From IMG/VR virus record IMGVR_UViG_3300032288_002811, positions 13,391 through 77,390 of that record: 64,000 nt of DNA, one strand, 5' to 3'. Below, one piece after another: positions 7,834-37,450 of this stretch. Both the position numbers and the translations under genes were made by a program. Each line of letters begins with the position of its first letter. Position 1 is the first letter of the stretch. The notes under the pieces are model-generated. The model ran no database searches, was not told where the DNA came from, and was given only the letters and a program-made list of their open reading frames with translations. Source of the DNA: a virus.

Positions 7834-7841
7834 TATTTATA
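7834..7841 (-). promoter_or_regulatory. Perfect T4 late promoter TATAAATA heading the glycosyltransferase cassette
   Basis: tatttata on + strand at 7834-7841 in the intergenic gap. Confidence 0.75.
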
Positions 7842-7851
7842 TATGATAAAT

Positions 7852-9708
7852 TTAACAGTAAAATACTGTTTGGAAAGCTCCTAGTGTGAAAGATCCAGTG
7901 CCACTGGATGCTACATTAGTCATAATTTGTGTTGGGCTACTTCTTACTGTACTTGCAGCTGCCAGTTGACAACCATATAGTCCATCTCCCCAAGCATACA
8001 ATACTCCTCCAGTAGTTACAGCCATAGCATGTGATGAACCAGCATCAACTTTTGAAAAAGTTGTTCCTGGCATAAGTTGTACTGGACTACTTCTATTGAC
8101 TGTAGCTGTGTTTCCTCCATGATATGGTGCTAGACCCCAACCAAAAAGTCTTCCATTAATATCAATTGCAAATCCGGCATAACCGGCTGCTGCAATTTGA
8201 CTATAACTACTACCTGTCGGATAAAGCAAAGCAGCATTACTTTTGTTAACAGTAAGATTATCACCTAGATTTCCATAACCATTATAACCCATTGAAAATA
8301 CTCTACCTGTATTTTGTAACCAAGTTGTATGTGTAGCTCCACCAACCATTGCTACATAACTAGACGATACTAATACGGGAGTACTTGCATTTGCTATTGT
8401 TCCACTTCCTGTTTGACCATAAAGATTGTATCCCCAAGCATAAGATGCGCCAGCTGTTGTAATAGCATATGTAGTGCCTGCTGAACCTCTATTCAGATTA
8501 GTATATTGACATGCAGAACCAGTAAGATTACCTGCAATAATTTGTGGGTATATTCTGGTACCAGAATTGACACCTGTTCCACCGCCTGTTGAACCGTTAG
8601 CGTTATTTCCCCAAGTGTAACATAACAAATTACTATAACCTAATGCTATTGTATATTGATTGTATGCATCAGCTCCATAGTATAAATTACTAGGTGCGCC
8701 GGCAGTAGTTAATTGTACAGGACTACTTCGAGCACCGGCACCAGCGCTGGTATTATTACCCCACTGAGCGGCCGTGTTTACGCCCCATATCCATAGTGTA
8801 GCGTCCGATTTAAGTCCGTTGGTTACGACATTACCATAATAATTGTATGCCCATTGACCAAAAGTTGATATAGGTCCAACTAAATTTGCTCTATTTGTAC
8901 CAGAAGTAAATACTGCTGTTGATTTATTGACTGTTGTGTTGTCACCTAATTGGCCACCTGTATTTAATCCAAAAGCAACAGTAAAACGTTCATATAATGT
9001 TTGTGTGGCCGAAACACCAACTTGTGTTCCAAAGTTATCAGGTGAAACACCTACTGTAAAAGTCCGTTCATTACCACCAGAATCATAATTTGTTGTTGTT
9101 AAACTGATTGTACCAGTACCTGTAACAGAAGTAGTAAAAGAACCTGAACTAGTAGTAAAATGTGAAGATGATGTTCCACCATGATTAATTCGCCAATATA
9201 ATAATTGACTATTATAACCTGTACATGCAACTGCAAGGTTGAAAGTACCTAAGCCCGCTTGGCCACCTCTAAGACAAATGTTTGACTGCCCACGTATGGC
9301 CGCTGACCTAGTAACCGTTGCTGTTACAGTTGTAGAAGTATCATTAACTGTTACTGAAGCACTGGTTGCAATAACTGTTCCTGATATTGAATCTGTTCTA
9401 ATACTAACTGTAAATGTTTCTGCACCTTCAGTTGTAAAATCTGCAATTGGTGTAATAGAAAAAGTACCTGAAGAAGCTGAAACTGTAATTGTACCTGAAG
9501 TTGCAGAAAAATCTCCAGAAGATGTTGTTACATGATTGATTGTCCAATATAATGTACCACTAGCAAAATTCGTTGTTGTTATACCAAATGATCCAGCAGA
9601 ACCTTCGTTGATTGAAGATGGTGTAGTATTAAATGTGGCTGATGCACTTAATACACCACCTGCTGCACCAAAACCTAACGATTGACCTATACTAGAATAA
9701 CGAGGCAT
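7852..9708 (-). CDS. RCC1/BLIP-II beta-propeller protein with N-terminal Calx-beta/Ig-like domains; candidate fibre-tip adhesin
   Basis: SINEG...LYWTI...DFTTEGAETFTVSIR...VTVNDTS (Calx-beta-like, second degenerate copy follows); RCC1 repeats FGLNTGGQLGDNT, WGYNLYGQTGSG, GYNGYGNLGDNL, AGSSHAMAVTTGGVLYAWG. Confidence 0.8.
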   Translation of the reverse strand: MPRYSSIGQSLGFGAAGGVLSASATFNTTPSSINEGSAGSFGITTTNFASGTLYWTINHVTTSSGDFSATSGTITVSASSGTFSITPIADFTTEGAETFTVSIRTDSISGTVIATSASVTVNDTSTTVTATVTRSAAIRGQSNICLRGGQAGLGTFNLAVACTGYNSQLLYWRINHGGTSSSHFTTSSGSFTTSVTGTGTISLTTTNYDSGGNERTFTVGVSPDNFGTQVGVSATQTLYERFTVAFGLNTGGQLGDNTTVNKSTAVFTSGTNRANLVGPISTFGQWAYNYYGNVVTNGLKSDATLWIWGVNTAAQWGNNTSAGAGARSSPVQLTTAGAPSNLYYGADAYNQYTIALGYSNLLCYTWGNNANGSTGGGTGVNSGTRIYPQIIAGNLTGSACQYTNLNRGSAGTTYAITTAGASYAWGYNLYGQTGSGTIANASTPVLVSSSYVAMVGGATHTTWLQNTGRVFSMGYNGYGNLGDNLTVNKSNAALLYPTGSSYSQIAAAGYAGFAIDINGRLFGWGLAPYHGGNTATVNRSSPVQLMPGTTFSKVDAGSSHAMAVTTGGVLYAWGDGLYGCQLAAASTVRSSPTQIMTNVASSGTGSFTLGAFQTVFYC

Positions 9709-9711
9709 ATT

Positions 9712-12700
9712 TTATCCGTATGAGTTTAATTGGCCAAGAATTGTAAATGTACCGGAAACATTAATCAATGTAAATGTTATCACATCAACTCTATTTGCGA
9801 CACCAACACCCGTTGTAGCATTTAACCATTTAATAGTAGGTGTTGAACCATTAACTGATATACTATTAACAATATATGGTGTTGCGCCTTGTGCAATTAT
9901 ACAAACAAATGTTGATACACGACTTGAAGTATTATCTAAACCAGTAATTGTTGCGGTAATGTTACCACCAACGCCTGTATGATAAAATGTGGCACCTGTA
10001 GAGTAATCATATGTTGTTGCACCACTAGAACTTGATTTGGATTGAAAGTTTTCTTGTGATTGTTGGAAAACTGTGTTACTACTAAAGGTTACTAGACCAG
10101 ATACTGTACCACCAGCTTTTGGTAGTGCATTGTTAGCAGTTGTAAATGCAGAGTTGGCATATGAACCTGCACCTGTTGCATTTGTGCCAGCGGTATTAGC
10201 AATACCAAACGCTGCGTTAGCATATGAACCAGCAGACAATGCATTAGTTGCAGCAGTATTGGCTTGTGTGAAAGCACCATTAGCGTAACCAGCTGCAGCA
10301 GTTACATTATTAGCAGTTGAGAATGCGGCATTAGCATATGAACCAGCACTTGTTCCTTTGGCATCTGCTGTATTGGCTGCCGTGAAAGCACCGTTGGCAT
10401 ATGTACCAGCTGATACTGCCTTAGCATCAGCTGTGGAAGCATTAGTAGCTGCGGTATTTGATTGAGAGAAACTGGAATTGGCATATGATGCTGCAGAATT
10501 AGCTACGGCAAATCCAGAGTTGGCATATGAACTTGCTGAAGCAGATGAAGCAGCATTAGCTGCTGTGAATGCACCGTTAGCATACGATGCAGCTGAGTTA
10601 GCAACATAACTTGGAGTATTGGCCGATAGGAAAGCAGAGTTAGCATATGAACTAGCAGCAGTTACGTTATTGGCTTGAGTGAATGCACCGTTGGCATACA
10701 ACGCAGCTGAGTTGGCAACATTACTCGGAGTGTTAGCTGTTAAGAATGCTGAGTTGGCATATGAACTAGCAGCAGTTATGTTATTAGCAATACCAAATGC
10801 TGAGTTAGCATATACACCAGCAGAATTGGCAGAAATGAAGGCACCATTTGCATATGAACTTGCTGAAGCAGATGACGCTGCATTAGCAGCTGTAAAAGCA
10901 CCGTTAGCATATACACCAGCAGATGTTGCGGTATTGGCTTGTGTGAAGGCACCGTTAGCATACGATGCAGCTGAGTTGGCAGTATAACTTGGAGTATTAG
11001 CCTGTAAGAAGGCAGAGTTAGCATATGAACTTGCTGAAGCAGATGAAGCTGCATTAGCTGCTGCAAAGGCACCGTTAGCATACGATGCAGCTGAGTTGGC
11101 AGTATAACTTGGAGTATTAGCAGTTAAGAATGCTGAGTTGGCATATGAACTTGCTGAAGCAGATGAAGCTGCATTAGCTGCTGCAAAGGCACCGTTAGCA
11201 TATGAACCTGCACCTACTGCTTTAGAGTCTGCCGTATTAGCTGCAATGAAAGCACCATTAGCATATATTGCAGCAGGAACAACACTCTCAAAAGCACTAT
11301 TTGCAACATTAAAAGCGGATGTTGCATTCAAAGCAGCAGTATTGGCAACTGTAAATGCTGAATTGGCATATGATCCAGATGTTACTGCCTTAGCATCCGC
11401 TGTTGCAGCATTAGTTGTTGCGGTATTGGCTTGTGTGAAGGCACCATTCGCATACACACCAGCAGACGTTGCAGTATTAGCTTGAGTGAAGGCACCGTTA
11501 GCATATATGGCTGCCGAGTTAGCAACATAACTTGGAGTATTGGCCGCTAGGAATGCAGAGTTGGCATAAACACCTGCCGAAGATGCACCACTTGCTGAGT
11601 TAGCAGCCGCAAAGGCCGCATTTGCATATGAACTAGAAGAATTAGCAACAGTAAAAGCACCGTTAGCATATACACCTGCCGAAGCTGCACCACTTGCTGA
11701 GTTAGCAGCCGCAAATGCCGAGTTGGCATAAGAACCAGCAGTTACTGCCTTAGCATCGGCCGTGTTAGCACCAGCGAATGCTGAGTTGGCATAAACACCT
11801 GCTGGTGTTGCTGTGTTAGCCTGTAAGAAGGCCGCATTTGCATATGAACCAGCAGAGTTTGCACCAGCATATGCATTGATTAAGTCACTAGACCATCCTG
11901 TATCATAGTTTGTTGAACTGTTCTTAACTAATACTTGACCTGTAGTACCACCAGAAGCAACACCATTACCAGTTGCGCCTGTGGTACCAGTTGCACCAGT
12001 TGGTCCACGTGGACCTTGGCCACCAGTTACTGTTTGTTCAAGTGCAAAATAATCTATCTTGGATGCATGTCCTGTATTACCAGCATTGCTGTGATATAAA
12101 CGAGCTTGAACTGCACCAGCAGAAATATAAGATGTATAACCTAATACTTCAAGTGCATATTGTGCATAACCATTGGCACCAGAATATGAACCAATATTGT
12201 CCCATGAAGATGTGGAATTGTTATAAATTTGGAAATAAATTATATGACCAGATGCTGGTGTGTAATCAATATTTGCAACGATTCGGTTGAATGATGTTAT
12301 ACCACTAAATGTAAATGTAATAATCCACGCAGGACCACTACCATTACCATCAGTTATTTGATATGAATTGCCATCATTCAATGTTTGTGTATCGGTTACA
12401 GAACCAGAAACATAAACACCATTAGTTAATGACAAACTGTCCGCTGTATATGAAGTTGTTGCTGGAGCTTCAATATCTGCAAAACTCAATACACCCGTAC
12501 CATCAGTAATTAAATATTGACCTGGTGCACCACCATAAATGTGTAAGTTGTCAACTACACCAAGTGCAACATTGGCTCCAACAGAATTCACATTACCAGA
12601 AATCTTAAATGCATTGTTTGATGTGAAGTATTCTAAGTTGCTTGTGTTACTTAAATAACCATTATTGTTGGCAAAAATTATAGTATTTGCTTTCCAGCCA

Positions 12701-14274
12701 CTTACTTGTGTTGCGTTGTTTGATTGAGTAAAAGCTGCATTAGCATATGAACCCGCACTTGTTGCTTTAGTATCTGCTGTATTGGCTGCTGTAAATGCAC
12801 CATTCGCATAAACACCAGCAGCAGTTGCCGTGTTGGCTTGTGTGAAAGCACCATTTGCATATGCAGCTGCAGAATTTGCCGTGTAACTTGGTGTATTGGC
12901 TGCTAAGAATGCCGAGTTGGCATATGAACCAGATGCACCACCTGCTGTATTAGCAACAGCAAATGCTGAGTTTGCATACGAACCAGCAGTTACTGCTTTA
13001 GCATCTGCGGTATTGGCCACACCAAATGCCGTATTGGCATATGTGCCAGAATTTACTGCCTTGGTATCAGCAGTATTAGCAGCAGTAAAAGCGCCGTTGG
13101 CATAAGAACCTGCTGATACACTAGTATTAGCCGCACTAAATGCCGAATTGGCATATGAACCTGATGCTACTGATTTGGCATCGGCTGTATTGGCTGCCGT
13201 GAAAGCACCGTTGGCATAAGAAGCTGCTGAAGTGATATTGGTGTTTTGTGTTAAATCAATACCAACACCGTTATTAGCTGACAAGAATGCTGAGTTGGCA
13301 TATGAACCTGCTGAATTGGCTGTACCAAAAGCACCATTAGCATATACACCTGAAGATGTTCCACTTAATGAGGCTGTATTGGCTGTTGCAAATGCACCGT
13401 TGGCATATATCGCAGCTGAGTTAGCCACACCAAATGCCGTATTGGCATATGTGCCAGAATTTACTGCCTTAGTGTCAGCAGTATTAGCAGCAGTATAACC
13501 TGAATTGGCATATGAACTGGCTGCTAATCCATTTGTATAAGCTGTGTTTGCTTGAGTATATGCGGAGTTGGCATAAGAACCTGCGGTGTTTCCTTTGTCA
13601 TATGCATTTGCAATAACACCAGCAGTATCAACACCACCGATTGTTATCTTACTAGCAATTACATTTGCTTTGACCACATTTGCGGCCACATTTGCATACT
13701 TGAATGATGAGTCAGTAACAATAATATTATTATTTGGTAATACTTCAGGTGTATATTCTTCAAAGAACATCCATTCTTTGGTGCCTGCATCTCTAATAAT
13801 ACCTGTATGAGCATTTACACCATTATTATAATGTGCTGCAAAACCAATATCAATTACATCAGATGTATAATTACCAATACCCATAATAAACATCGAATCA
13901 TTTACAACAAATGAATTTGTATTGATGTTTGTAGTATTACCAAGAATGTTTAAGTTGCCGGTAACTGTTAGGTTTTGATTTACGTTTAAAGAACCTGTAA
14001 TTGTACCACCAGTTAATGGTAATGCATTGTTAGCTGCATCAAACGCTGATTGACCGGTAGTATCACTTTTTTGTACTAGGTCACCATCAGCAGTTCCAGA
14101 TTTCCACCAGTATTCAACAACTGGAGAAGAACCAATACCAACAGTCAAACCAAGATAACGATTTCCAACAGACACAGAACTCTTAGCAGTAGCTGTATCT
14201 GCATATGGACCGTACCTAGAATCGGTCGATAAAGGTGCTTGTATACTTAGATTGTCGTTTAGGGTAATTGCCAT
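9712..14274 (-). CDS. Fibre protein, 1520 aa: Ala/Asn heptad repeats, knob module, central beta-sandwich, short collagen-like stretch, C-terminal beta domain
   Basis: YAN(S/G/A)AF repeats; GGQGPRGPTGATGTTGATG followed by GGTTGQVLVKNSSTNYDTGW; C-terminal TIKWLN...DVITFTL. Confidence 0.75.
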   Translation of the reverse strand: MAITLNDNLSIQAPLSTDSRYGPYADTATAKSSVSVGNRYLGLTVGIGSSPVVEYWWKSGTADGDLVQKSDTTGQSAFDAANNALPLTGGTITGSLNVNQNLTVTGNLNILGNTTNINTNSFVVNDSMFIMGIGNYTSDVIDIGFAAHYNNGVNAHTGIIRDAGTKEWMFFEEYTPEVLPNNNIIVTDSSFKYANVAANVVKANVIASKITIGGVDTAGVIANAYDKGNTAGSYANSAYTQANTAYTNGLAASSYANSGYTAANTADTKAVNSGTYANTAFGVANSAAIYANGAFATANTASLSGTSSGVYANGAFGTANSAGSYANSAFLSANNGVGIDLTQNTNITSAASYANGAFTAANTADAKSVASGSYANSAFSAANTSVSAGSYANGAFTAANTADTKAVNSGTYANTAFGVANTADAKAVTAGSYANSAFAVANTAGGASGSYANSAFLAANTPSYTANSAAAYANGAFTQANTATAAGVYANGAFTAANTADTKATSAGSYANAAFTQSNNATQVSGWKANTIIFANNNGYLSNTSNLEYFTSNNAFKISGNVNSVGANVALGVVDNLHIYGGAPGQYLITDGTGVLSFADIEAPATTSYTADSLSLTNGVYVSGSVTDTQTLNDGNSYQITDGNGSGPAWIITFTFSGITSFNRIVANIDYTPASGHIIYFQIYNNSTSSWDNIGSYSGANGYAQYALEVLGYTSYISAGAVQARLYHSNAGNTGHASKIDYFALEQTVTGGQGPRGPTGATGTTGATGNGVASGGTTGQVLVKNSSTNYDTGWSSDLINAYAGANSAGSYANAAFLQANTATPAGVYANSAFAGANTADAKAVTAGSYANSAFAAANSASGAASAGVYANGAFTVANSSSSYANAAFAAANSASGASSAGVYANSAFLAANTPSYVANSAAIYANGAFTQANTATSAGVYANGAFTQANTATTNAATADAKAVTSGSYANSAFTVANTAALNATSAFNVANSAFESVVPAAIYANGAFIAANTADSKAVGAGSYANGAFAAANAASSASASSYANSAFLTANTPSYTANSAASYANGAFAAANAASSASASSYANSAFLQANTPSYTANSAASYANGAFTQANTATSAGVYANGAFTAANAASSASASSYANGAFISANSAGVYANSAFGIANNITAASSYANSAFLTANTPSNVANSAALYANGAFTQANNVTAASSYANSAFLSANTPSYVANSAASYANGAFTAANAASSASASSYANSGFAVANSAASYANSSFSQSNTAATNASTADAKAVSAGTYANGAFTAANTADAKGTSAGSYANAAFSTANNVTAAAGYANGAFTQANTAATNALSAGSYANAAFGIANTAGTNATGAGSYANSAFTTANNALPKAGGTVSGLVTFSSNTVFQQSQENFQSKSSSSGATTYDYSTGATFYHTGVGGNITATITGLDNTSSRVSTFVCIIAQGATPYIVNSISVNGSTPTIKWLNATTGVGVANRVDVITFTLINVSGTFTILGQLNSYG

Positions 14275-14277
14275 GTC

Positions 14278-15930
14278 TTAACTCAATGTTATTGAACCGC
14301 TAGTTGTTGTTGCGAAGCCTGATATGTATATCTTATATGATACTCCAGTCCAATATGAACTTGGTGAAGTAACGTTTTGTGTTACAGGTCCCAAAATGAA
14401 TTGGCCTGAACCGATACTACCATTATTTAGAGCAGTATTATACCAAGAAGTTTTGGTTGAATAACTAGCAGGTACTGCAAACCATACATATTGTCCACTA
14501 GCATTCCATGTGATTGATATTGAACCAGATGAATCGGAAACAACTTTGTTTGTTGTGCCTGCTTCAATTGCAGCTGCGATAGAAGAACCTGTTGGTTGCG
14601 ATGAGGCCACACCCCAGAAGTATGGATAAATTCCAGTAGTAGATGTACTACCACCAGAGAAAGAATTTTGTGCAGCTTGTGGATTGGTAGTTAACAATAC
14701 AGCAGCTGTATTACTATCAGTACCACCTTTGTTATTTAATTTTGCTACACCAGCACTATAGTTTCCATCACCAGCCCAAGTTGTTGTACCATTAACAATC
14801 GTAAATGTATCTGTATAAGAAGCTGTGTAAGAATAGTTTTGATTATTTGGATCTTCATAACCAAACTGAGAAGCAACATTAGATGTAGTAGAACTTGTTG
14901 GATTTGTACATGCAGAAATTTGACTTCCATCACGTGTGAAACGTAATTGTGTAAACGGTCCTGCATCATTCTTAATACCAGTCAACGTCATTGATTGATT
15001 GACAGAAACACCAATTTCATATGTACCAGAAACACTTGGTGAGAATGAAAGTGTTGGTACTGTGTAAGATGGTCCTAATGTTGGGAATAATATTGCGTCT
15101 AATGCTTGCACGATTGTATATGTTTTCCATGTTGATGCTGGCGTAGGAGCTGCACCACCAACTTGAATGCTTGTAACTGAATTGGCAATTGATGTATTAT
15201 ATGATAATGCATTATTGGCTTGCAAGAATGCTGCATTGGCTGTTTGTCTTGCAAAAGAATCTTGTGCAGTCGCCGCAGCTGAAGATGCTGAATTTGCCGC
15301 ATCAAAAGCTAAGTTAGCAAAAGTGCTGGCAGAGTTAGCTGCTTGGAATGCACCATTAGCATAATTGGTCGCAGCGATTACATTATTTGCAATTGCAAAA
15401 GCAGCATTGGCATATGTGCCGGAGTTTATTGCTCTAACATCAGCAGTATTAGCAGCTGTAAATGCACCATTGGCATAACCGGATGCTGAATTTGCCGTGT
15501 AACTTGGCGTGTTGGCTTGTAAGAATGCTGAGTTAGCATAATCACCAGAAGAATTCGCAGCCGTAAATGCTGAATTGGCTTGTGTTCTAACCCATAAATC
15601 AGTAGAATTATTTGCTTTATCGAATGCAGCATTAGCATACAATGCAGCCGAATTGGCGGTATAACTTGGTGTGTTGGCTTGTAAGAATGCTGAATTGGCA
15701 TATGAACCAGCTGCGCTACCTGAAGCAATATTAGCAACTGCAAAAGCAGAATTGGCATATACACCTGCAGAATTTGCTGTTGTGAATGCTGAATTGGATT
15801 GTGTTCTGGCAAAACTATCAAGTATAGTATTTGCTACTACTTTCCAAGCGTTATTGGCCTCATTGTAAATGTATGTTTTTCCATTTACAATTGTTGTTTC
15901 GTTATCTGAAGGTGATGTTGGGAATGCCAT
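14278..15930 (-). CDS. Fibre/connector protein, 550 aa
   Basis: N-terminal MAFPTSPS...NGKTYIYN...AWK, ~200 aa of heptad repeats, C-terminal Ig-like domain with YPYFWG/YVWFAVP. Confidence 0.7.
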   Translation of the reverse strand: MAFPTSPSDNETTIVNGKTYIYNEANNAWKVVANTILDSFARTQSNSAFTTANSAGVYANSAFAVANIASGSAAGSYANSAFLQANTPSYTANSAALYANAAFDKANNSTDLWVRTQANSAFTAANSSGDYANSAFLQANTPSYTANSASGYANGAFTAANTADVRAINSGTYANAAFAIANNVIAATNYANGAFQAANSASTFANLAFDAANSASSAAATAQDSFARQTANAAFLQANNALSYNTSIANSVTSIQVGGAAPTPASTWKTYTIVQALDAILFPTLGPSYTVPTLSFSPSVSGTYEIGVSVNQSMTLTGIKNDAGPFTQLRFTRDGSQISACTNPTSSTTSNVASQFGYEDPNNQNYSYTASYTDTFTIVNGTTTWAGDGNYSAGVAKLNNKGGTDSNTAAVLLTTNPQAAQNSFSGGSTSTTGIYPYFWGVASSQPTGSSIAAAIEAGTTNKVVSDSSGSISITWNASGQYVWFAVPASYSTKTSWYNTALNNGSIGSGQFILGPVTQNVTSPSSYWTGVSYKIYISGFATTTSGSITLS

Positions 15931-15950
15931 ATTGTTTTTTGCTTATTATT

Positions 15951-15958
15951 TATTTAGA
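15951..15958 (-). promoter_or_regulatory. Late promoter variant (TCTAAATA; overlapping AATAAATA at 15947-15954)
   Basis: TAAATA motif in the short intergenic gap upstream of 15930. Confidence 0.55.
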
Positions 15959-15962
15959 TAAT

Positions 15963-20510: not shown

Positions 20511-20537
20511 GAATGCTTAATCCGTTATTTTATTATT

Positions 20538-20545
20538 TATTTATG
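20538..20545 (-). promoter_or_regulatory. Late promoter variant (CATAAATA; overlapping AATAAATA at 20534-20541)
   Basis: TAAATA motif overlapping the upstream stop codon, ahead of 20510. Confidence 0.55.
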
Positions 20546-31373: not shown

Positions 31374-31399
31374 ATTTTATTTGTTCTGGTGCATTCTTT

Positions 31400-31407
31400 T
31401 ATTTATC
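31400..31407 (-). promoter_or_regulatory. Late promoter variant (GATAAATA)
   Basis: In the intergenic gap upstream of 31373. Confidence 0.55.
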
Positions 31408-31424
31408 TTATTTGGTGGCAACTA

Positions 31425-31982
31425 TTAGAAAGTTCCACCATTAATTACATTTAAACCAATTTCACCAATATATCTGTAACCAGTAATAAAAACTACTTTA
31501 CCAGTTAATGCTGATGGTATTGTACCACCAATAAAATTTAAAACTCCAGATTGATAATCAAAAAACCATTCACCTACACCCGCAATACCAGAATCAAACA
31601 TCTGTGTGCCTGTTGCAACAGGATTCGATGCACCAGAACTGTCTGCATACACAGAGACAAAGTATGATGAACCAAATTCTGGTGTGATCCAATCAGTCAG
31701 GTTAGTCTTCCATGTTGGATACACTCCACCAACAGCCGTAGATGTACCATCCGCAACACATTGTATTCTATCTGTGCCTTGATATCCTTGTACAATACCA
31801 ACTACAGATGATGCTGTGGCAGGTATAAAACTGGCTTGAGTCCAAATTTTATCACCACGATTAATTGTTGGACTGGCAATAGTTTCATTACTTGCACTCT
31901 TATTTGTTGATGTGTCTGTTTTAGTAACACCAAAAAGTTTTTTATAAAGTAAATCAACTTTTGAGGAATCTGATACTGCCAT
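31425..31982 (-). CDS. Hypothetical virion/connector protein, 185 aa
   Basis: Tightly packed between fibre genes; KVDLLYKK, EWFFDYQSGVLNF, GYRYIG; ends INGGTF. Confidence 0.7.
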   Translation of the reverse strand: MAVSDSSKVDLLYKKLFGVTKTDTSTNKSASNETIASPTINRGDKIWTQASFIPATASSVVGIVQGYQGTDRIQCVADGTSTAVGGVYPTWKTNLTDWITPEFGSSYFVSVYADSSGASNPVATGTQMFDSGIAGVGEWFFDYQSGVLNFIGGTIPSALTGKVVFITGYRYIGEIGLNVINGGTF

Positions 31983-34382
31983 TTAGTTACTCGCTGTCTG
32001 CAAAGATAATGCGGTCACAGTTTGACCACTTGTTAATTTAATTCTAACATAAATTTCATTGGTCAATCCTGGATCCGAACTAGATACAGTACCAAATGTA
32101 CAAGTTTTTCTGTGGTTAGTTACTGCTGAATTTAATGTGACTACACCACCCAATGCACAACCACTTGATGGTACACCTGCACCACTATATGCAGTTGCCA
32201 TACTGACCCAACCATTTGTTGCACCTGCAGATGTATCTATGGCACTACCTGGTACTGCAACCCAAAGGCCAGCAATCGTACCTGTAAATTGAATATCAAA
32301 TTTAGATACAGATGTTCTTATAAATCTAAATGTAAAGTATTGTGCAGAACTTCTTCCTGAACTTAGGTCTGGACCTGCAGGTAAATAACCTGTAGAATAG
32401 TTTGTCTGGTCATGTTTTAATATCGCAGCAACCATTGTTGCGTCATATACTTGTAATGTTCCATTTTGGCTATCGAACAATGTTGCATTTGGGAATTGTA
32501 CAGGATTGTCTGTAGAACCAGGATTAATAATTCTTGATGCCGTGCCGGAACCTGTACCAACAGTAGAACCAAAAGTAACAGCAGATTCTTCCATGGAATT
32601 GCCTGTTCCTGTTTTATAAAGAACTGTATTGGCCAATGCTGATGTGAATGCTTGTGTACCTGTTGCATAACTATTATCTACTGTAACACTTGGACCAGTT
32701 GATGATGAACCAAAACCAGATATAATTGTAGATGTTGTATTTACAGTAACGGAGCCAGAGGACACATATAAATTTTGTACCAAAGGAAATGTTATACCAA
32801 CAGTTGGATATGTGTTACTAGAAGGTGCAGCAAATGCACCACCAGCAGTACCGGTAAAAAATGTATTGCTTGTTGGGAACATATCACCACTCAATTTAGA
32901 TACGTTAACACCCAATCTAAATGTAGATGAACTATTATAGTGTGGTACTGTACTTGAATATGTCAATGATGGAGATAGAGGTACAATACTTGCTGAAGTA
33001 AATGTTGGTGTACCTGGAGATGATGCATCATAATACCAAGATGCAGTAGAAGTTGTACCTGCACCAGAATGTGTAAGATAAACTTCATTCCATCCAGATG
33101 ATACACTACCTGAACCTTGAACTGTAAATATTCTCCAAAAGCCTGCAGCACCACCAGAAACAGTAGAGTAATCTTTACTTTGTGAAATAACTAAATCACT
33201 ATAACTACCGTTAGCACTTGATGTTGTGAAACTTACACTACCTGATATCGTACTATTTTTATAGAGTCTGAGTGTACCAGAATCGCCTGGTCCAAAGTTA
33301 CTAAAAAGATTTGTTGAGTATGAAGCCGTTCTGAGAACTGTACTAACAGTTGCACCACCAGAAACATTTCTGGCACTTGAAGTTCTGTCCGTTTGTATAA
33401 AATTTGTCATACGATATGTTGACAAACTATTAATACTTAAAGATGTTCCAGTAGGGAATGCTGGCGGCGATGCAGGTACTAGTTTACCTAACACATTGTT
33501 TAATAGTGCTATACCATCTGTAATTTTTGTTGTTGTTGTAAGTGTCACCGCATTACTTACCAATTGACCAACTGTGTTTGAACCTAAATCAGCAGTAGCA
33601 CCAGTAATTGTTGCTGAAACTCCACTAGCTAAATCATAAGCAGTATTTGCAACATCAAAAGCCGAATTGGCATAAACACTACCAGAATTAGCAGTATCAA
33701 ATGCACCGTTAGCATAAATGTCTGCTGAGTTGGCAGTATAACTTGGAGTATTTGCTTGTAGAAAAGCATAAGCAGCTGATGTAAATGCAGAATTGGCTAC
33801 ACCAAATGCTGAGTTGGCATAACTAGATGCAGAGTTTGCTACATAATCTGGTGTATTGGCTTTTAAGAATGCAGCGTTTGCTTGTATAAATGCACCATTA
33901 GCATACAACGCAGCAGAGTTTGCTGTATAAATTGGTGTGTTGGCTTTTAAGAAAGCTGCATTAGCATAACTTGCAGCAGAATTGGATGTACTGAATGCTG
34001 TGTTGGCATACAGACTGGCACCAGCCGCATTGTTTGTTGCTGTGTTTGCTTGGTCATAAGCAGAATTAGCATACACGCCAGCAGAATTGGCTGCAATAAA
34101 AGAAGAATTTGCTTGTAAATAAGATGCATTTGAATATGCATATGGTGCAGCAGCAGTAAACTGTTTTGTTCCATCAGCCAAGAATGTAACATTTGAGAAT
34201 TCTCCATTGGCTGCAGCCTTGGATGCAACTAGACTTACTGCATTATTGGTGTCTAAGTAAAATAATTTACCATCAACAATATTAATAGCAACTTCACCGG
34301 CAACAAGCGAGCTCGCCAGAGGTAATGTACCTCCGGTATTAGAATAGAATAGTTGAATTGCTGTTGAATTGGCTTGTGCCAT
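31983..34382 (-). CDS. Fibre protein, 799 aa, with T4 gp37-like N-terminal domain and large Ser/Thr-rich beta C-terminal region
   Basis: IQLFYSNTGGTLPLASSLVAGEVAINIVDGKLFY resembles the T4 gp37 N-terminus (IQFKRSK.AG.RPAASVLAEGELAINL.D..IF); short heptad block follows. Confidence 0.75.
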   Translation of the reverse strand: MAQANSTAIQLFYSNTGGTLPLASSLVAGEVAINIVDGKLFYLDTNNAVSLVASKAAANGEFSNVTFLADGTKQFTAAAPYAYSNASYLQANSSFIAANSAGVYANSAYDQANTATNNAAGASLYANTAFSTSNSAASYANAAFLKANTPIYTANSAALYANGAFIQANAAFLKANTPDYVANSASSYANSAFGVANSAFTSAAYAFLQANTPSYTANSADIYANGAFDTANSGSVYANSAFDVANTAYDLASGVSATITGATADLGSNTVGQLVSNAVTLTTTTKITDGIALLNNVLGKLVPASPPAFPTGTSLSINSLSTYRMTNFIQTDRTSSARNVSGGATVSTVLRTASYSTNLFSNFGPGDSGTLRLYKNSTISGSVSFTTSSANGSYSDLVISQSKDYSTVSGGAAGFWRIFTVQGSGSVSSGWNEVYLTHSGAGTTSTASWYYDASSPGTPTFTSASIVPLSPSLTYSSTVPHYNSSSTFRLGVNVSKLSGDMFPTSNTFFTGTAGGAFAAPSSNTYPTVGITFPLVQNLYVSSGSVTVNTTSTIISGFGSSSTGPSVTVDNSYATGTQAFTSALANTVLYKTGTGNSMEESAVTFGSTVGTGSGTASRIINPGSTDNPVQFPNATLFDSQNGTLQVYDATMVAAILKHDQTNYSTGYLPAGPDLSSGRSSAQYFTFRFIRTSVSKFDIQFTGTIAGLWVAVPGSAIDTSAGATNGWVSMATAYSGAGVPSSGCALGGVVTLNSAVTNHRKTCTFGTVSSSDPGLTNEIYVRIKLTSGQTVTALSLQTASN

Positions 34383-34415
34383 TGTTACCTTACTCTTATA
34401 TAATTGTTATTTTAT

Positions 34416-34423
34416 TATTTAGA
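34416..34423 (-). promoter_or_regulatory. Late promoter variant (TCTAAATA)
   Basis: Overlaps the upstream stop codon, ahead of 34382. Confidence 0.5.
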
Positions 34424-36836
34424 ACGTGCCACCAGAAATCAGATTCGCTCGAAGTGTTCCACCCAATATTACATTACCCGATACACCAATACCACCAACT
34501 ATAACCATTGTACCTGTATCTGTTGCCGTTGAATTAACATTTGAATTTGCAATTAATTGTCCAAAATTACCTACACTTGCACCACCTGAACCAGATACAC
34601 TAAATGTTGCACCCGTATCACTTGTTAATGATATTGCACCACCTTCAGCAGAAATCTCTGCACCACCCAAATCAATAGTGTTACCAGCAAGAAACAGTTT
34701 ACGCCAACGTCTTGTTGGACTGCCTAAATCGTAACTGATATTTGCAGAAGGTAAGATATGACCGGCATATGTATTAGCCTGTATAATTACCTGACCTTGT
34801 AATGTTAAAGCACCACTAACTGTACCACCAGTTTTTGGTAAAGCAGCATCAGCAAGATTATAAGCAGAATTGGCTTGAAGAAATGATGAGTTGGCGTATG
34901 ATGCAGATGAGTTTGCTGTATAACTTGGTGTGTTAGCTTGAATGAAAGCTGCATTGGCTGTACTGAATGAAGCATTTGCTTGTCTGAATGCACCATTAGC
35001 ATAATTTGATGCCGAATTGGCCGAAACAAAAGCCCCGTTGGCATATGTTCCACCAGAAACTCCAGTGGATGAGGCTGCATTGGCTGCGTCAAATGCTGTG
35101 TTGGCTTGTGTTCGAACCCATGTATCTACAGCACTATTAGCAGCTGCAAAGGCCGCATTGGCGTATATGCCAGAAGAATTGGCTGCAACAAAAGCACCGT
35201 TAGCATATAATGCTGCTGAGTTGGCAACATTACTTGGTGTATTGGCTTGTAGGAAAGCCGCATTTGCTTGTACAAAAGCACCGTTAGCATAAACACTAGC
35301 TGCTGTAGTATTATTTGCTGCAATGAATGCCGCATTTGCTTGTACAAAAGCACCATTCGCATACAACGCAGCTGAGTTAGCAACATTACTTGGTGTGTTA
35401 GCAGTTAAGAAAGCACCGTTGGCGTATACACCAGCGGATGCAGCTGTATTAGCAACAACAAACGCAGCATTAGCATATGAACTTACTGAATTTGATGTAG
35501 TAAATGCACCATTAGCATATAATGCAGCCGAGTTAGCAACATTACTTGGAGTATTTGCTTGTAGGAAAGCGGCATTCGCTTGTACGAAAGCACCGTTAGC
35601 ATATAATGCAGCTGAGTTGGCAACATTGCTTGGTGTATTGGCTTGCAAGAAGGCCGCATTAGCATATACACCAGATGAATTAGCTGCATCAAATGCTGAA
35701 TTTGAATTTAAGAAAGCCGCATTAGCATAAACACCAGAAGAATTAGCAGCAACAAATGCAGAATTTGCTTTTATAAAAGCAAGATTGGCTGTATTAAAAG
35801 AGGATGTTATGTGTGAATATGCATTTATTCCATTTATAGTTGCATATTCAGCAATTAAATTACCTTTAAATACATTTGAATAAACGTTGGCATATGAAAA
35901 TGATGGATGAGCAAGGTCAATTAAGTTATTACCTTCAACTTCAGGTGTATATCCTTGAAAGAAAATCCATTCTTTTCTGTTTGGATCTCTAAAAATACCT
36001 GTGTGAGCATTAGATCCAGAATTATAATTACCAATAATACCAATGTCAACTGCATCACTGCTGTAATTATTACTACCCAAATATATTAAAGTATCGGTTA
36101 CTGTAACGCTTTGTGTACTAATTGTTGTACTATTACCAAAAACAATCAAGTTACCAGAAACTGTAAGGTCATTTGTTACATTTAATGAACCTGAAACTGT
36201 ACCACCAGTAGCTAATGATGTAGTATTTGCTTTATCAAACGCACCTTGTGCAAGGTTTGTTGCAGATGTAATATTGGTATTTTGTGTTGTATTAACACCT
36301 TGTAACAATATAATATTATTTGATGCGGTATTGGCTGTGTCAAACGCAGCGTTTGCTTGTGCAAAAGCAAAAACAGCCAAACCTGCACCGTTGGCAGTAT
36401 TGTATGCAGCTTGTGCTAATGCTGATGCTGAATTGGCCGCACCAAATGCAGAGTTGGCATATATGCCTACTGTTACAGAATTATTTGCATTCGTATTTGC
36501 TTGTAAGAAAGCTGCATTAGCTTTAGTAAATGCACCATTTGCTTGGTTGAAAGCAGCATTTGCGCCTGCCCATGCAAGACTTAAATTACCTGTAGAACCC
36601 GCTGAATTAGCAGTATTGAATGCAGCCTGTGCTAATGTAGTAGCAGTATTGGCCTGTGTATATGCATTTATACCAGTTGCCACCGCTGTGGCACCACCAA
36701 TGGTAATTACATTACCATATTGATTACCAATATAAAATGTATTTGCTAAAAATGAGTAAGCTAATGCGCCATCTTGTAAAAAAGTCGGTGCAGTATTAGC
36801 ATACGACCTTAATATCTGTACACTTGTATTTGACAT
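34419..36836 (-). CDS. Fibre protein, 805 aa
   Basis: N-terminal VQILRSY...PTFLQDGALAYS...FYIGN, heptad repeats, knob module, ILPSANISYDLGSPTRRWRKLFL; ends ISGGTF. Confidence 0.75.
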   Translation of the reverse strand: MSNTSVQILRSYANTAPTFLQDGALAYSFLANTFYIGNQYGNVITIGGATAVATGINAYTQANTATTLAQAAFNTANSAGSTGNLSLAWAGANAAFNQANGAFTKANAAFLQANTNANNSVTVGIYANSAFGAANSASALAQAAYNTANGAGLAVFAFAQANAAFDTANTASNNIILLQGVNTTQNTNITSATNLAQGAFDKANTTSLATGGTVSGSLNVTNDLTVSGNLIVFGNSTTISTQSVTVTDTLIYLGSNNYSSDAVDIGIIGNYNSGSNAHTGIFRDPNRKEWIFFQGYTPEVEGNNLIDLAHPSFSYANVYSNVFKGNLIAEYATINGINAYSHITSSFNTANLAFIKANSAFVAANSSGVYANAAFLNSNSAFDAANSSGVYANAAFLQANTPSNVANSAALYANGAFVQANAAFLQANTPSNVANSAALYANGAFTTSNSVSSYANAAFVVANTAASAGVYANGAFLTANTPSNVANSAALYANGAFVQANAAFIAANNTTAASVYANGAFVQANAAFLQANTPSNVANSAALYANGAFVAANSSGIYANAAFAAANSAVDTWVRTQANTAFDAANAASSTGVSGGTYANGAFVSANSASNYANGAFRQANASFSTANAAFIQANTPSYTANSSASYANSSFLQANSAYNLADAALPKTGGTVSGALTLQGQVIIQANTYAGHILPSANISYDLGSPTRRWRKLFLAGNTIDLGGAEISAEGGAISLTSDTGATFSVSGSGGASVGNFGQLIANSNVNSTATDTGTMVIVGGIGVSGNVILGGTLRANLISGGTF

Positions 36837-37054
36837 TAGAAAAACCCAACATCAACTACTACATCGGCTGCGGATGCTGGTGCAACAGCAAAACTGTTTG
36901 TGTTTGCTCTGTATACAATAGAATATCCATCCTGAGCACCAGCCAGACTTAAATCGGAAGCACTTTTGATTGTTCTGGTACCATATTGAATGGCTGTAAC
37001 AGATGGATTAGGTTGACCTACGGTTACTCTGATGTTTGCTGGTGATGTTGCCAT
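36836..37054 (-). CDS. Small hypothetical virion/connector protein, 72 aa
   Basis: Stop overlaps the next ATG (TAATG); ends VVVDVGFF. Confidence 0.65.
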   Translation of the reverse strand: MATSPANIRVTVGQPNPSVTAIQYGTRTIKSASDLSLAGAQDGYSIVYRANTNSFAVAPASAADVVVDVGFF

Positions 37055-37058
37055 TTTA

Positions 37059-37409
37059 TTACCTTGTTACACGTGGTAAAACATCAACAACACCTTCCAA
37101 AACTCTAACAACTGTATTTGCTTGTCCAGGTGCACCTTCATAAGACACTATAGTGTCATATACGTATCGACCTGTAGAAATATTAGCTGTTTGTCTGGAA
37201 TCCAATGATAATGTTATTGTGGATGTTCCTGTGTTTATTGATGTTACGAATGTTGCAGTTGCATTCGCAGAATAATAAGATTTTCTGATTTGACTAAAAC
37301 AAGACGCATTTGAGAGGTCGTAATTATCTCCATAAACGTCATCCAACGTCAACGAAATGTTGAAGGTCGTGCCTTGTTCTAAAAATAAATTCTGGTAACC
37401 TGCGGCCAT
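37059..37409 (-). CDS. Conserved T4-like virion adaptor protein (single beta-sandwich), 116 aa
   Basis: NLFLEQGTTF...YDLS...QIRKSY...TLSL...T...GRYVYD...RVLEG...PRVTR pattern familiar from T4-like phage structural modules. Confidence 0.7.
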   Translation of the reverse strand: MAAGYQNLFLEQGTTFNISLTLDDVYGDNYDLSNASCFSQIRKSYYSANATATFVTSINTGTSTITLSLDSRQTANISTGRYVYDTIVSYEGAPGQANTVVRVLEGVVDVLPRVTR

Positions 37410-37442: not shown

Positions 37443-37450
37443 TATTTATA
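37443..37450 (-). promoter_or_regulatory. Perfect T4 late promoter TATAAATA (second ACTAAATA at 37435-37442) heading the fibre array
   Basis: tatttata on + strand at 37443-37450. Confidence 0.75.

What the first reader, a model, noticed from the sequence alone, without database searches (positions are those of the whole stretch)
7852..37409. Colinear 'daisy-chain' giant fibre: C-terminal GGxF-like plugs paired with N-terminal gp37/Mtd-type sockets
Seen: in transcription order, all four genes ending in a short D/N/S-x-G-x-F/L peptide (72 aa ...VDVGFF; 805 aa ...ISGGTF; 185 aa ...INGGTF; 3610 aa ...VDCGELT) are immediately followed by a gene starting with a related domain (VQILRS..P..L.DG.LAY; IQLFYS..P...L..GEVAIN; IQLKWS..P.L..GEAAY; FQLRRG...G..AEV.VD). 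No other gene in the window starts this way. The other junctions show different end/start types (799->185, 1515->550, 550->1520, 1520->RCC1 protein). Known: the T4 gp37 N-terminal domain joins the distal fibre to gp36, and T4 fibre genes are colinear with the fibre. Inference: ten proteins (9,790 aa) may polymerise head-to-tail in gene order via cognate plug/socket pairs, from the 116-aa adaptor to an RCC1 propeller tip. At ~0.15 nm per coiled-coil residue this would give an appendage many hundreds of nm long (rough estimate), well beyond T4 fibres.
Basis: partly seen in the sequence, partly recalled or inferred. Interest (0 to 1): 0.9.

Follow-up and report, generated by a model that had tools for sequence, protein, structure and literature searches.

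The report
Plug-and-socket joints link phage tail-fibre proteins
Ten neighbouring late genes of an uncultured T4-like phage encode tail-fibre segments, and a short C-terminal "plug" on one protein followed by an N-terminal "socket" on the next (as in T4 gp36/gp37) looks like a widespread sequence rule for reading fibre assembly order from a genome.

Summary
Among 31 same-strand gene junctions in the window, exactly four genes end in a plug ([D/N/S]-x-G-x-hydrophobic). Exactly four start with a gp37-N/Mtd_N-like socket, and all four sockets directly follow the four plugs.

The pairing is general:
- T4 gp36 (…DFGYY) precedes gp37.
- BPP-1 bbp9 (…DLGGIA) precedes Mtd.
- Seven other named phages show it at eight joints; three named phages do not.
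- Across 1,022 dereplicated junctions from 160 viral contigs plus the window, a plug precedes 74% of socket genes and 7% of other genes.
- Plug subtype tracks socket subtype.
- The socket starts within the first ten residues in 148 of the 150 best database matches.

The four joints give two three-protein rods, 72→805→799 and 185→3610→1515. These are probably coupled through a second conserved pair, the 799 C-domain and the 185 N-domain. The junctions 550→1520 and, less surely, 1520→618 are conserved pairings of other kinds. 1515→550 is not conserved, so one ten-protein chain is unlikely.

The coiled-coil length estimate is probably too high, because Gly or Pro occurs about every 10 residues. 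This is a new multi-joint variant of the T4 long-fibre joint.

The parts
37443..37450 (-). T4-type late promoter TATAAATA, 34 nt upstream of the p116 start; probable start of the ten-gene unit
   Evidence: Only two exact copies occur in the 64 kb window, against 9 expected. Both are on the minus strand and they bracket the block.
37059..37409 (-). p116, a small non-fibrous protein and possible fibre anchor or assembly factor
   Evidence: phrog_1084 (E 7e-19) and phrog_3304, labelled 'L-shaped tail fiber protein assembly' (E 1e-14). It is positionally equivalent to HTVC008M gp061 (112 aa, given the same phrog_3304-type label in its record), but the two were not compared directly. It has no plug. 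Matches to it occur in 21-26 relatives.
36836..37054 (-). p72, a mini-protein ending in the plug ...VDVGFF (plug codons 36839-36856)
   Evidence: Relatives carry 71-100 aa proteins ending ...NGGSF...DGGRY or ...DNGFF directly before a socket gene.
34419..36836 (-). p805, a rod segment with a socket at its N-terminus (about 36702-36836) and the plug ...ISGGTF at its C-terminus (34422-34439)
   Evidence: Socket HMM E 5e-26. Plug. Tail-fibre PHROGs.
31983..34382 (-). p799, with an N-terminal socket (about 34248-34382), a short rod, then a conserved 545-aa C-terminal module (31986-33620) of beta-sandwich domains ending in a CBM/MAM-like jelly roll
   Evidence: Socket HMM E 4e-23. phrog_8578 E 1e-87. 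AF2 pLDDT 84.6. Fold searches.
31425..31982 (-). p185, a connector with a conserved N-terminal domain that always follows the p799-type C-module, and the plug ...INGGTF (31428-31445)
   Evidence: Present in 80/80 related contigs and in the same 53 cultured phage genomes as the p799 module. Gly-Gly-x-Phe at the end is invariant in 14 homologues.
20541..31373 (-). p3610, a giant rod segment with a socket (about 31239-31373), 150 Ala/Asn-rich 7/14-residue repeat motifs with a few non-repeat nodules, and the plug ...VDCGELT (20544-20564)
   Evidence: The gene at this position in relatives is 490-918 aa where it is a socket gene. The longest homologue found elsewhere is 3,011 aa.
15963..20510 (-). 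p1515, a rod segment starting with a bona fide Mtd_N socket (residues 6-41; about 20376-20510), with no plug at its end
   Evidence: PF18454, 41 bits against a cut-off of 26.3..
14278..15930 (-). p550, probably the first segment of a separate fibre. Its N-terminal MAFPTSPSD-type module follows diverse genes elsewhere. Its C-terminal domain pairs with the p1520 N-domain.
9712..14274 (-). p1520, a rod segment. Its N-terminal domain is preceded by a p550-like C-domain in 11/11 contigs. Its C-terminal domain (...LGQLNSYG) is a conserved fibre end.
7852..9708 (-). p618, a candidate tip protein with Calx-beta-like domains and an RCC1 beta-propeller
   Evidence: PF00415, 69.9 bits. Genes that follow p1520-type C-domains in other contigs mostly start with a similar short Gly-containing peptide and carry varied cargo.
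7834..7841 (-). Second TATAAATA, directly after the p618 stop; start of the next late unit (glycosyltransferase genes)

Best explanation
The ten genes form one late transcription unit of a T4-like myovirus related to pelagiphage HTVC008M and cyanomyoviruses. They encode modular tail fibres built from separate trimeric segments.

Segments are joined head to tail by the joint T4 uses between gp36 and gp37. The extreme C-terminus of the proximal protein is the plug: Gly-Gly-x-Phe, or Asp-x-Gly-x-hydrophobic with 0-2 further residues. It docks onto the N-terminal beta-prism of the next protein, the socket, which is gp37-N/Mtd_N-like. The downstream protein is encoded by the next gene.

Four such joints give two rods, p72->p805->p799 and p185->p3610->p1515. 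The two rods are probably coupled through a second, different conserved pair, the p799 C-terminal beta-sandwich module and the p185 N-terminal domain. That would make a knee-like arrangement in the same gene order as T4 gp34-gp35-gp36-gp37. p550->p1520(->p618) is most likely a further fibre that uses other conserved end/start pairs, with the RCC1 propeller as an exchangeable tip.

Shown here: the motifs, their adjacency, their conservation, the subtype covariation and the homology of the sockets. Inferred: physical binding, the geometry of the joint and the overall shape.
For: Within the window:
- 4 plugs and 4 sockets among 31 junctions are paired 4/4.

Named phages:
- T4 gp36 ends ...DFGYY and gp37 starts with the socket. 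Trimeric gp36 is known to bind the N-terminal region of gp37 (PMC3004832).
- The socket profile matches T4 gp37-N at 98.5% and the Mtd_N type at 81%.
- Nine joints in eight other named phages of differing taxonomy obey the rule: BPP-1 bbp9->Mtd, HTVC008M gp063->gp064, CRP-3, Minorna (two joints), S-TIP37, Vibrio 1.021.B, Vibrio D69 and a gut Syntrophomonadaceae phage.

Uncultured contigs:
- In 67 dereplicated Mtd_N-type genes fetched by the socket alone, 57 have an upstream ORF ending in a plug.
- Over 1,022 dereplicated junctions, a plug precedes 74% of socket genes against 7.2% of other genes. The odds ratio is 37 and Fisher p is 2e-80, but relatedness inflates this p-value.
- Subtypes covary. 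E.AYS-type sockets follow GG.F plugs in 40 of 43 cases. Mtd_N-type sockets follow D.G.h plugs in 58 of 86.

Position of the socket:
- It starts within the first ten residues in 148 of the 150 best of 11,427 matching cluster representatives.
- No internal socket was found in the first 80 related contigs (L004-L083) or the window.
- Rare natural fusions place a plug-like motif 0-6 residues before an internal socket: qdvp001 gp169 and P0003, with P0002 (GGTL directly before the socket) a looser case.

Other junctions:
- The p799 C-module and p185 occur in the same count of cultured phage records (53, with 79 places each and identical breakdowns by organism). They are adjacent in those inspected, and serial in Atu_ph07.
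- A p550-like C-domain precedes the p1520-like N-domain in 11/11 contigs.

Transcription:
- The block is bracketed by the only two TATAAATA motifs in the window.
Against:
- The T4 gp36-gp37 joint has no atomic model: a profile search of PDB sequences found only the free Mtd trimer, and the 2026 T4 preprint lists an EM map but no PDB entry for the distal rod.
- p185 is not homologous to T4 gp36 (hhalign probability 0.3%).
- There are exceptions. S-SSM7, S-CAM1 and Vibrio K385 sockets have no plug upstream. phiCbK gp074 has a plug but no socket gene follows it.
- Many contigs insert a small helical protein between the plug gene and the socket gene.
- The adjacency statistics come from related phages and are not independent events.
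- The last p799 domain is CBM-like, which would also fit a receptor-binding fibre end.
- The contig is a metagenome assembly. The length of the highly repetitive p3610 could not be checked against reads or found as an exact sequence elsewhere.
Confidence: 0.62

Rival explanations
1. One reading: all ten proteins polymerise in gene order into one giant fibre, from p116 to the RCC1 tip.
For: - The block is a single late unit.
- Seven of nine junctions show a conserved end/start pairing of some kind.
- Two contigs (L197, L181) have a p1515-like C-end just before a p550-like start.
Against: - 1515->550 is not conserved. The p550-type N-terminus follows diverse genes in 11 of 13 dereplicated contigs.
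- The only relatives of the p1515 C-end are followed by a different gene.
- p116 has no fibre features.
- p799 ends in globular beta-sandwich and CBM-like domains.
Confidence: 0.12
2. The motifs are not a physical joint. The conserved gene ends and starts would instead be recombination linkers for swapping fibre modules, or signals for a folding chaperone, and each socket protein is an independent fibre.
For: - Fibre genes here share repeats and recent tandem expansions.
- Small helical, chaperone-like proteins sit between the plug gene and the socket gene in many contigs.
- There are plug-less sockets and socket-less plugs.
Against: - Conservation is at the protein level, across phages with no DNA similarity and with intergenic gaps from -4 to +77 nt.
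- In T4 the two ends are known to belong to proteins that bind each other.
- Plug and socket subtypes covary.
- Natural fusions keep the plug next to the socket.
Confidence: 0.1
3. The sockets all dock on a common hub such as a baseplate or collar protein, giving a branched bouquet of separate fibres. The plug would then be a trimerisation or termination cap of each fibre.
For: - The Mtd beta-prism is described only as 'presumably' attaching to the tail fibre (PMC10743442).
- Branched receptor-binding complexes exist in other phages (own knowledge: CBA120, RaK2).
Against: - A hub model does not explain why the plug sits on the gene immediately upstream.
- It does not explain why plug type matches socket type.
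- Short plug-bearing proteins such as p72 and p185 would have no role.
Confidence: 0.1

Closest known systems
T4 long tail fibre, gp36-gp37 joint (distal half-fibre)
   Same: - The upstream protein ends in Asp-x-Gly-x-aromatic.
- The next gene starts with a homologous N-terminal domain (hhalign 98.5%).
- Gene order equals fibre order.
- A small connector (p185, 185 aa, against gp36, 221 aa) precedes the long distal rod.
   Different: - There are four joints in series instead of one.
- p185 is not a Phage_T4_gp36 family member.
- No gp34 or gp35 homologues are present.
- The rod segments are Ala/Asn-rich 7/14-residue repeats, and one segment is 3,610 aa against 1,026 aa for gp37.
Bordetella phage BPP-1 Mtd (Pfam Mtd_N, PDB 1YU0)
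   Same: - p1515 starts with a bona fide Mtd_N beta-prism.
- In BPP-1 the upstream fibre gene bbp9 ends ...DLGGIA, which is the same plug class as p3610.
   Different: - Mtd is a 381-aa C-type-lectin receptor binder diversified by a retroelement.
- p1515 is a 1,515-aa repeat rod with no lectin domain and no DGR nearby.
Pelagibacter phage HTVC008M fibre cluster (gp061-gp064)
   Same: - The nearest cultured relative by DNA.
- It has a 112-aa gp061 at the position of p116, carrying the same kind of PHROG-type label.
- It has one plug->Mtd_N joint (gp063 ...VDLGSVA -> gp064).
   Different: - Only one joint.
- No p799/p185 module was seen in the region read.
- Fibre proteins are about 600-1,070 aa.
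phiCbK-like and Atu_ph07-like phages, gp073/gp074-type pair
   Same: The p799 C-module is followed by a p185-type protein. In phiCbK that protein also ends ...DGGTF.
   Different: - phiCbK belongs to the Dolichocephalovirinae, unlike the T4-like window phage.
- In phiCbK the pair lies beside head genes.
- No socket gene follows.
- The function of the pair is unknown in all of these phages.

Membership tests
T4 gp36-gp37-type fibre joint | The downstream protein starts with a gp37-N-like domain | tested here: met
   Profile A6, which includes the p3610, p799 and p805 N-termini, matches T4 gp37 residues 6-51 at hhalign probability 98.5%, E 1.6e-15.
T4 gp36-gp37-type fibre joint | The upstream protein ends in the gp36-like C-terminal motif (T4: ...DFGYY) | tested here: met
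   p72 ...DVGFF, p805 ...SGGTF, p185 ...NGGTF and p3610 ...DCGELT.
T4 gp36-gp37-type fibre joint | The upstream connector belongs to Pfam Phage_T4_gp36 (PF03903) | tested here: not met
   T4 gp36 hits PF03903 at 178 bits. p185 and p72 have no Pfam hit. p185 profile against gp36 gives hhalign probability 0.3%.
T4 gp36-gp37-type fibre joint | The two proteins bind physically, end to start | not testable with these tools
Only the free Mtd trimer is in the PDB. The T4 distal rod exists only as a map.
Pfam Mtd_N (PF18454) | Score above the gathering cut-off (26.3 bits) | tested here: met
   p1515 scores 41 bits as a whole protein and 47 bits as the N-terminal 60 aa. This holds for p1515 only.
Pfam Mtd_N (PF18454) | The same cut-off applied to p3610, p805 and p799 | tested here: not met
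   p3610 scores 18.3 bits (E 0.002). p805 and p799 give no hit. Profile-profile comparison with the Mtd_N type gives 81% probability, so they are remote relatives rather than family members by Pfam's criterion.
T4 knee (gp34 C-end / gp35 kneecap) | Fold similarity of the p799 C-module to gp35 or the gp34 tower | tested here: inconclusive
   The last ~200 aa are a CBM/MAM-like jelly roll, Z 6-8, and CBM22 and CBM16 are among the hits. The T4 kneecap is also described as having a CBM-like domain. The fold is common, and no T4 kneecap chain appeared among the fold-search hits.
Alpha-helical coiled-coil fibre (basis of the length estimate) | Long uninterrupted heptad runs | tested here: inconclusive
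   7/14/21-residue periodicity is real. However, Gly or Pro occurs at a median spacing of 10 residues, and only 8% of p3610 lies in Gly/Pro-free runs of 28 or more. No fold of the repeat was obtained.
RCC1 repeat propeller (p618) | Pfam RCC1 above the cut-off | tested here: met
   PF00415 scores 69.9 bits against 21.7. PF13540 scores 41.6 against 22.

The most novel reading that the evidence does not exclude
A short C-terminal plug (GG-x-F, or D-x-G-x-hydrophobic at the very end) together with an N-terminal gp37-N/Mtd_N beta-prism may be a general, subtype-matched connector code of tailed phages, so far undescribed as a sequence rule. If so, fibre assembly order could be read from gene order in thousands of uncultured genomes. 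This phage would use it four times, plus a second joint type, to build a six-protein fibre of 6,986 residues per strand, including one 3,610-aa link. Such a fibre would be several times longer than a T4 long tail fibre.
Probability: 0.35. Interest if true: 0.8.

Novelty: new variant of a known kind. Interest (0 to 1): 0.62.

Why it matters
Tail fibres decide host range, yet for almost all uncultured phages nobody can say which fibre-like genes belong to one fibre or in what order.

- A sequence rule for head-to-tail joints would let assembly order and fibre composition be predicted from genomes. The rule is anchored in the T4 gp36-gp37 joint and extends to Mtd and to about 11,000 protein clusters that carry the socket.
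- It would point to natural breakpoints for modular fibre swaps in laboratory phages.
- It gives a concrete, testable hypothesis for the T4 gp36-gp37 joint, which still has no atomic model.
- The window also shows an extreme case: a link of 3,610 aa carrying both a socket and a plug. None of the 38 giant homologues found has both.

Tried and rejected
An exact-sequence look-up of p3610, p1515 and p805 found nothing.
- **AF2 of p185:** low confidence (pLDDT 51), so it was not used for fold search.
- **p72 against the HTVC008M gp062 N-terminus:** no BLASTP similarity. The idea that p72 is a split-off anchor domain was dropped.
- **p185 against T4 gp36:** no similarity.
- **p116 against PDB sequences:** nothing significant.
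- **First 500 aa of p3610 against PDB sequences:** nothing.
- **Pfam on the p799 C-module and on two 1,200-aa pieces of p3610:** nothing.
- **Foldseek of the p799 C-module against the PDB:** only generic Ig-like chains.
- **Socket alignment A3:** too diverse for a collection scan. The subclass alignment A4 was used instead.
- **Literature:** six searches found statements that gp36 binds the gp37 N-terminal region and that the Mtd prism 'presumably' attaches to the fibre. None described the C-terminal plug motif. Absence from this library does not prove it is unpublished.
- **1515->550 as a conserved joint:** rejected.

Full report
**What the window is.** The window is part of a 77-kb IMG/VR viral contig estimated to be 46% complete. 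The nearest cultured relatives by DNA are Pelagibacter phage HTVC008M and T4-like cyanophages. The finding covers ten tightly packed minus-strand genes:
- p116 (37409-37059)
- p72 (37054-36836)
- p805 (36836-34419)
- p799 (34382-31983)
- p185 (31982-31425)
- p3610 (31373-20541)
- p1515 (20510-15963)
- p550 (15930-14278)
- p1520 (14274-9712)
- p618 (9708-7852)

The only two exact T4-type late promoter motifs (TATAAATA) in the 64 kb lie on the minus strand at 37443-37450 and 7834-7841. About nine would be expected by chance. They bracket the block exactly, so the ten genes look like one late transcription unit.

**Checking the observation.**
- An HMM built from the four N-termini plus T4 gp37 finds sockets in only four window genes.
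- A plug regex finds only four plug ends.
- Among 31 same-strand junctions, all four sockets directly follow the four plugs. The chance of that placement is 1/C(31,4) = 3e-5.
- Pfam's Mtd_N passes its threshold only for p1515. p3610 is sub-threshold, and p805 and p799 are not hit.
- Profile-profile comparison does connect them. The type I/II socket profile matches the T4 gp37 N-terminus at 98.5% probability and the Mtd_N-type profile at 81%.

**The T4 anchor.** In T4, read from the GenBank record, gp36 ends ...DFGYY. gp37, the next gene, starts with the same kind of domain. Trimeric gp36 is known to bind the N-terminal region of gp37 (PMC3004832). That joint has no atomic model:
- A profile search of PDB sequences finds the socket only in the free Mtd trimer.
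- A 2026 T4 preprint lists the distal rod as an EM map with no PDB entry.

**How general the pairing is.**

*Relatives fetched with p185 as bait (80 contigs).* These show the rule repeatedly and at non-homologous positions. A typical chain is an 82-aa protein (...NGGSF), then a 928-aa socket protein, then, after the p185 homologue, 186 aa -> 543 aa -> 163 aa -> 346 aa -> 623 aa. Each boundary but one is a plug followed by a socket; the 163-aa protein follows a plug but starts with a helical N-terminus rather than a socket.

*Contigs fetched with the Mtd_N-type socket alone.* This second sample was chosen independently of p185. Of 67 dereplicated socket genes, 57 have an upstream ORF ending in a plug, mostly D-[YFLCW]-G-[STGA]-[LIV] with 0-2 further residues.

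*Pooled statistics.* Over 1,022 dereplicated junctions, a plug precedes 74% of socket genes and 7.2% of other genes. The odds ratio is 37 and Fisher p is 2e-80. Relatedness inflates this p-value.

*Apparent exceptions.* Many have a small helical protein of 80-125 aa wedged between a plug gene and the socket gene.

*Named phages with a plug before the socket gene*:
- BPP-1 (bbp9 ...DLGGIA -> Mtd)
- HTVC008M
- roseophage CRP-3
- coliphage Minorna (two joints in series)
- cyanopodovirus S-TIP37
- Vibrio phages 1.021.B and D69
- a gut Syntrophomonadaceae phage

*Named phages without one:* S-SSM7, S-CAM1 and Vibrio K385.

**Evidence that the pairing is a contact, not mere synteny.**
1. Subtypes covary. 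Sockets of the E.AYS type follow GG.F plugs in 40 of 43 cases. Mtd_N-type sockets follow D.G.h plugs in 58 of 86.
2. The socket is essentially always at the free N-terminus. It starts within the first ten residues in 148 of the 150 best of 11,427 matching cluster representatives. No internal socket was found in the first 80 related contigs or the window.
3. Rare natural fusions keep a plug-like motif 0-6 residues before an internal socket. Examples are Vibrio phage qdvp001 gp169 (...DYGAV, then four residues, then the socket) and P0003 (...DFGTF, then six residues, then the socket). P0002 (...GGTL directly before the socket) is a looser case, since Leu lies outside the GG-x-Phe/Tyr definition.
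4. Conservation is at the protein level, with intergenic gaps from -4 to +77 nt.

Binding itself therefore remains an inference from T4.

**The other junctions.**

*799->185.* This is a second conserved pair.
- The 545-aa C-module of p799 folds confidently (pLDDT 84.6). It is a string of beta-sandwich domains ending in a CBM/MAM-like jelly roll, Z 6-8.
- It lies directly upstream of a p185-type N-domain in 80/80 contigs.
- The two occur in the same number of cultured phage records (53, with 79 places each and identical breakdowns by organism). They are adjacent in those inspected.
- In Atu_ph07 the pair is serial: gp326 -> gp325 -> gp324.
- Proteins with the p185 N-domain range from 185 to 2,106 aa. 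The pairing is therefore between termini, not whole genes.
- The gene order (rod, globular module with a CBM-like domain, small plug-bearing connector, long socket-bearing rod) parallels T4 gp34-gp35-gp36-gp37. p185 is not a gp36 homologue, however, and the fold evidence is generic.

*550->1520.* In 11/11 contigs fetched with the p1520 N-domain, the upstream ORF ends in a p550-like C-domain, 1-13 nt away in ten of them and overlapping by one base in the eleventh.

*1520->618.* Relatives of the p1520 C-domain mostly precede genes that start with a similar short Gly-containing peptide but carry varied cargo. This is moderate support for an exchangeable tip.

*1515->550.* This is not conserved. 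The p550-type start follows diverse genes. The p1515 C-end has only two identical relatives, and a different gene follows them.

*116->72.* p116 matches PHROGs 1084 and 3304, the latter labelled 'L-shaped tail fiber protein assembly'. It has no fibre features.

**Size and shape.**
- p3610 carries 150 ANxA[FYWL] motifs spaced 7, 14 or 21 residues apart, interrupted by a few non-repeat nodules.
- Where the corresponding gene in relatives is a socket gene, it is 490-918 aa. In one relative (L014) the next called ORF is not a socket gene.
- 38 giant homologues of 1,988-3,011 aa exist in independent assemblies. None has both a socket and a plug. p3610 is thus the longest found and the only one that is an internal link.
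- Gly or Pro occurs at a median spacing of 10 residues, and only 8% of residues lie in Gly/Pro-free runs of 28 or more. A continuous coiled coil at 0.15 nm/residue is therefore doubtful.
- Scaling by T4 gives a different figure. From my own knowledge, about 2,500 residues per strand span roughly 145 nm. On that scale p185+p3610+p1515 would be roughly 300 nm, still far longer than a T4 fibre. This is a rough inference.
- The assembly of this repetitive gene could not be verified.

**Verdict.** It overreaches in extent, because the evidence supports two or three assemblies rather than one ten-protein chain, and the length estimate is uncertain. I file this as a new multi-joint variant of the T4 gp36-gp37 joint. 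I found no description of the plug motif in six literature searches, which does not prove it is unpublished.

Noticed in passing
L030, L049, L057, L103, L112, L116, L121, L128, L131, L167 (related viral contigs): A small helical protein of 80-125 aa, with an N-terminus such as MDQTKFINSYI... or MEDQSKFFNVII..., is often wedged between a plug-ending gene (...IDGGTY, ...DCGTF) and the socket gene. Longer versions of 159-190 aa (L010, L012, L019, L045, L047) carry their own plug and are followed by a socket. It could be a chaperone or an extra link with a different kind of socket.
   Followed up: partly
L168 (phiCbK 34386-37037: gp073, gp074): In phiCbK the pair of p799-type module and p185-type protein sits directly after the head genes and before a giant lectin-like protein. 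gp074 ends ...IDGGTF, but no socket gene follows. It might relate to the phiCbK head filament (own knowledge), which was not tested.
   Followed up: no
L246 (Vibrio phage qdvp001 gp169, residues ~150-225): A natural single-chain fusion. A plug-like ...DYGAV is followed after four residues by an internal Mtd_N-like socket. It would be a good target for a single-chain fold of the joint.
   Followed up: partly
window 37530-40310 (-) and 40536-46829 (-): Just upstream of the block lie a 926-aa fibre with a C-terminal Peptidase_S74 intramolecular chaperone domain and a 2,097-aa DUF4815 (VrlC-like) protein. The phage therefore has at least one further fibre or spike type.
   Followed up: partly
window, whole: TATAAATA is strongly depleted, with 2 copies against 9 expected. 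Both copies sit at operon boundaries on the coding strand.
   Followed up: partly
L181-L199; window 15811-15930 (-): The p550 N-terminus (MAFPTSPSD..., followed by a Y-x-Y...W hairpin-like motif) is a widespread start of fibre-like proteins of many lengths and follows unrelated upstream genes. It is probably an independent attachment module.
   Followed up: partly
L004, L006, L008, L010, L011, L013, L047 and others: In relatives the last protein of the chain, which starts with an Mtd_N socket, ends in a conserved ...[SA]IALG motif. p1515 lacks this motif.
   Followed up: no
L244, L245 (cyanophages S-SSM7, S-CAM1): A 152-aa protein starting with Mtd_N follows a giant gene that ends without a plug (...TYVVII, ...TYGWII). 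These are clear exceptions to the rule.
   Followed up: no
window 31982-31983 and relatives: The p799 stop codon is immediately followed by the p185 ATG. Relatives have gaps of -4 to +3 nt. This suggests translational coupling of the two partners.
   Followed up: no
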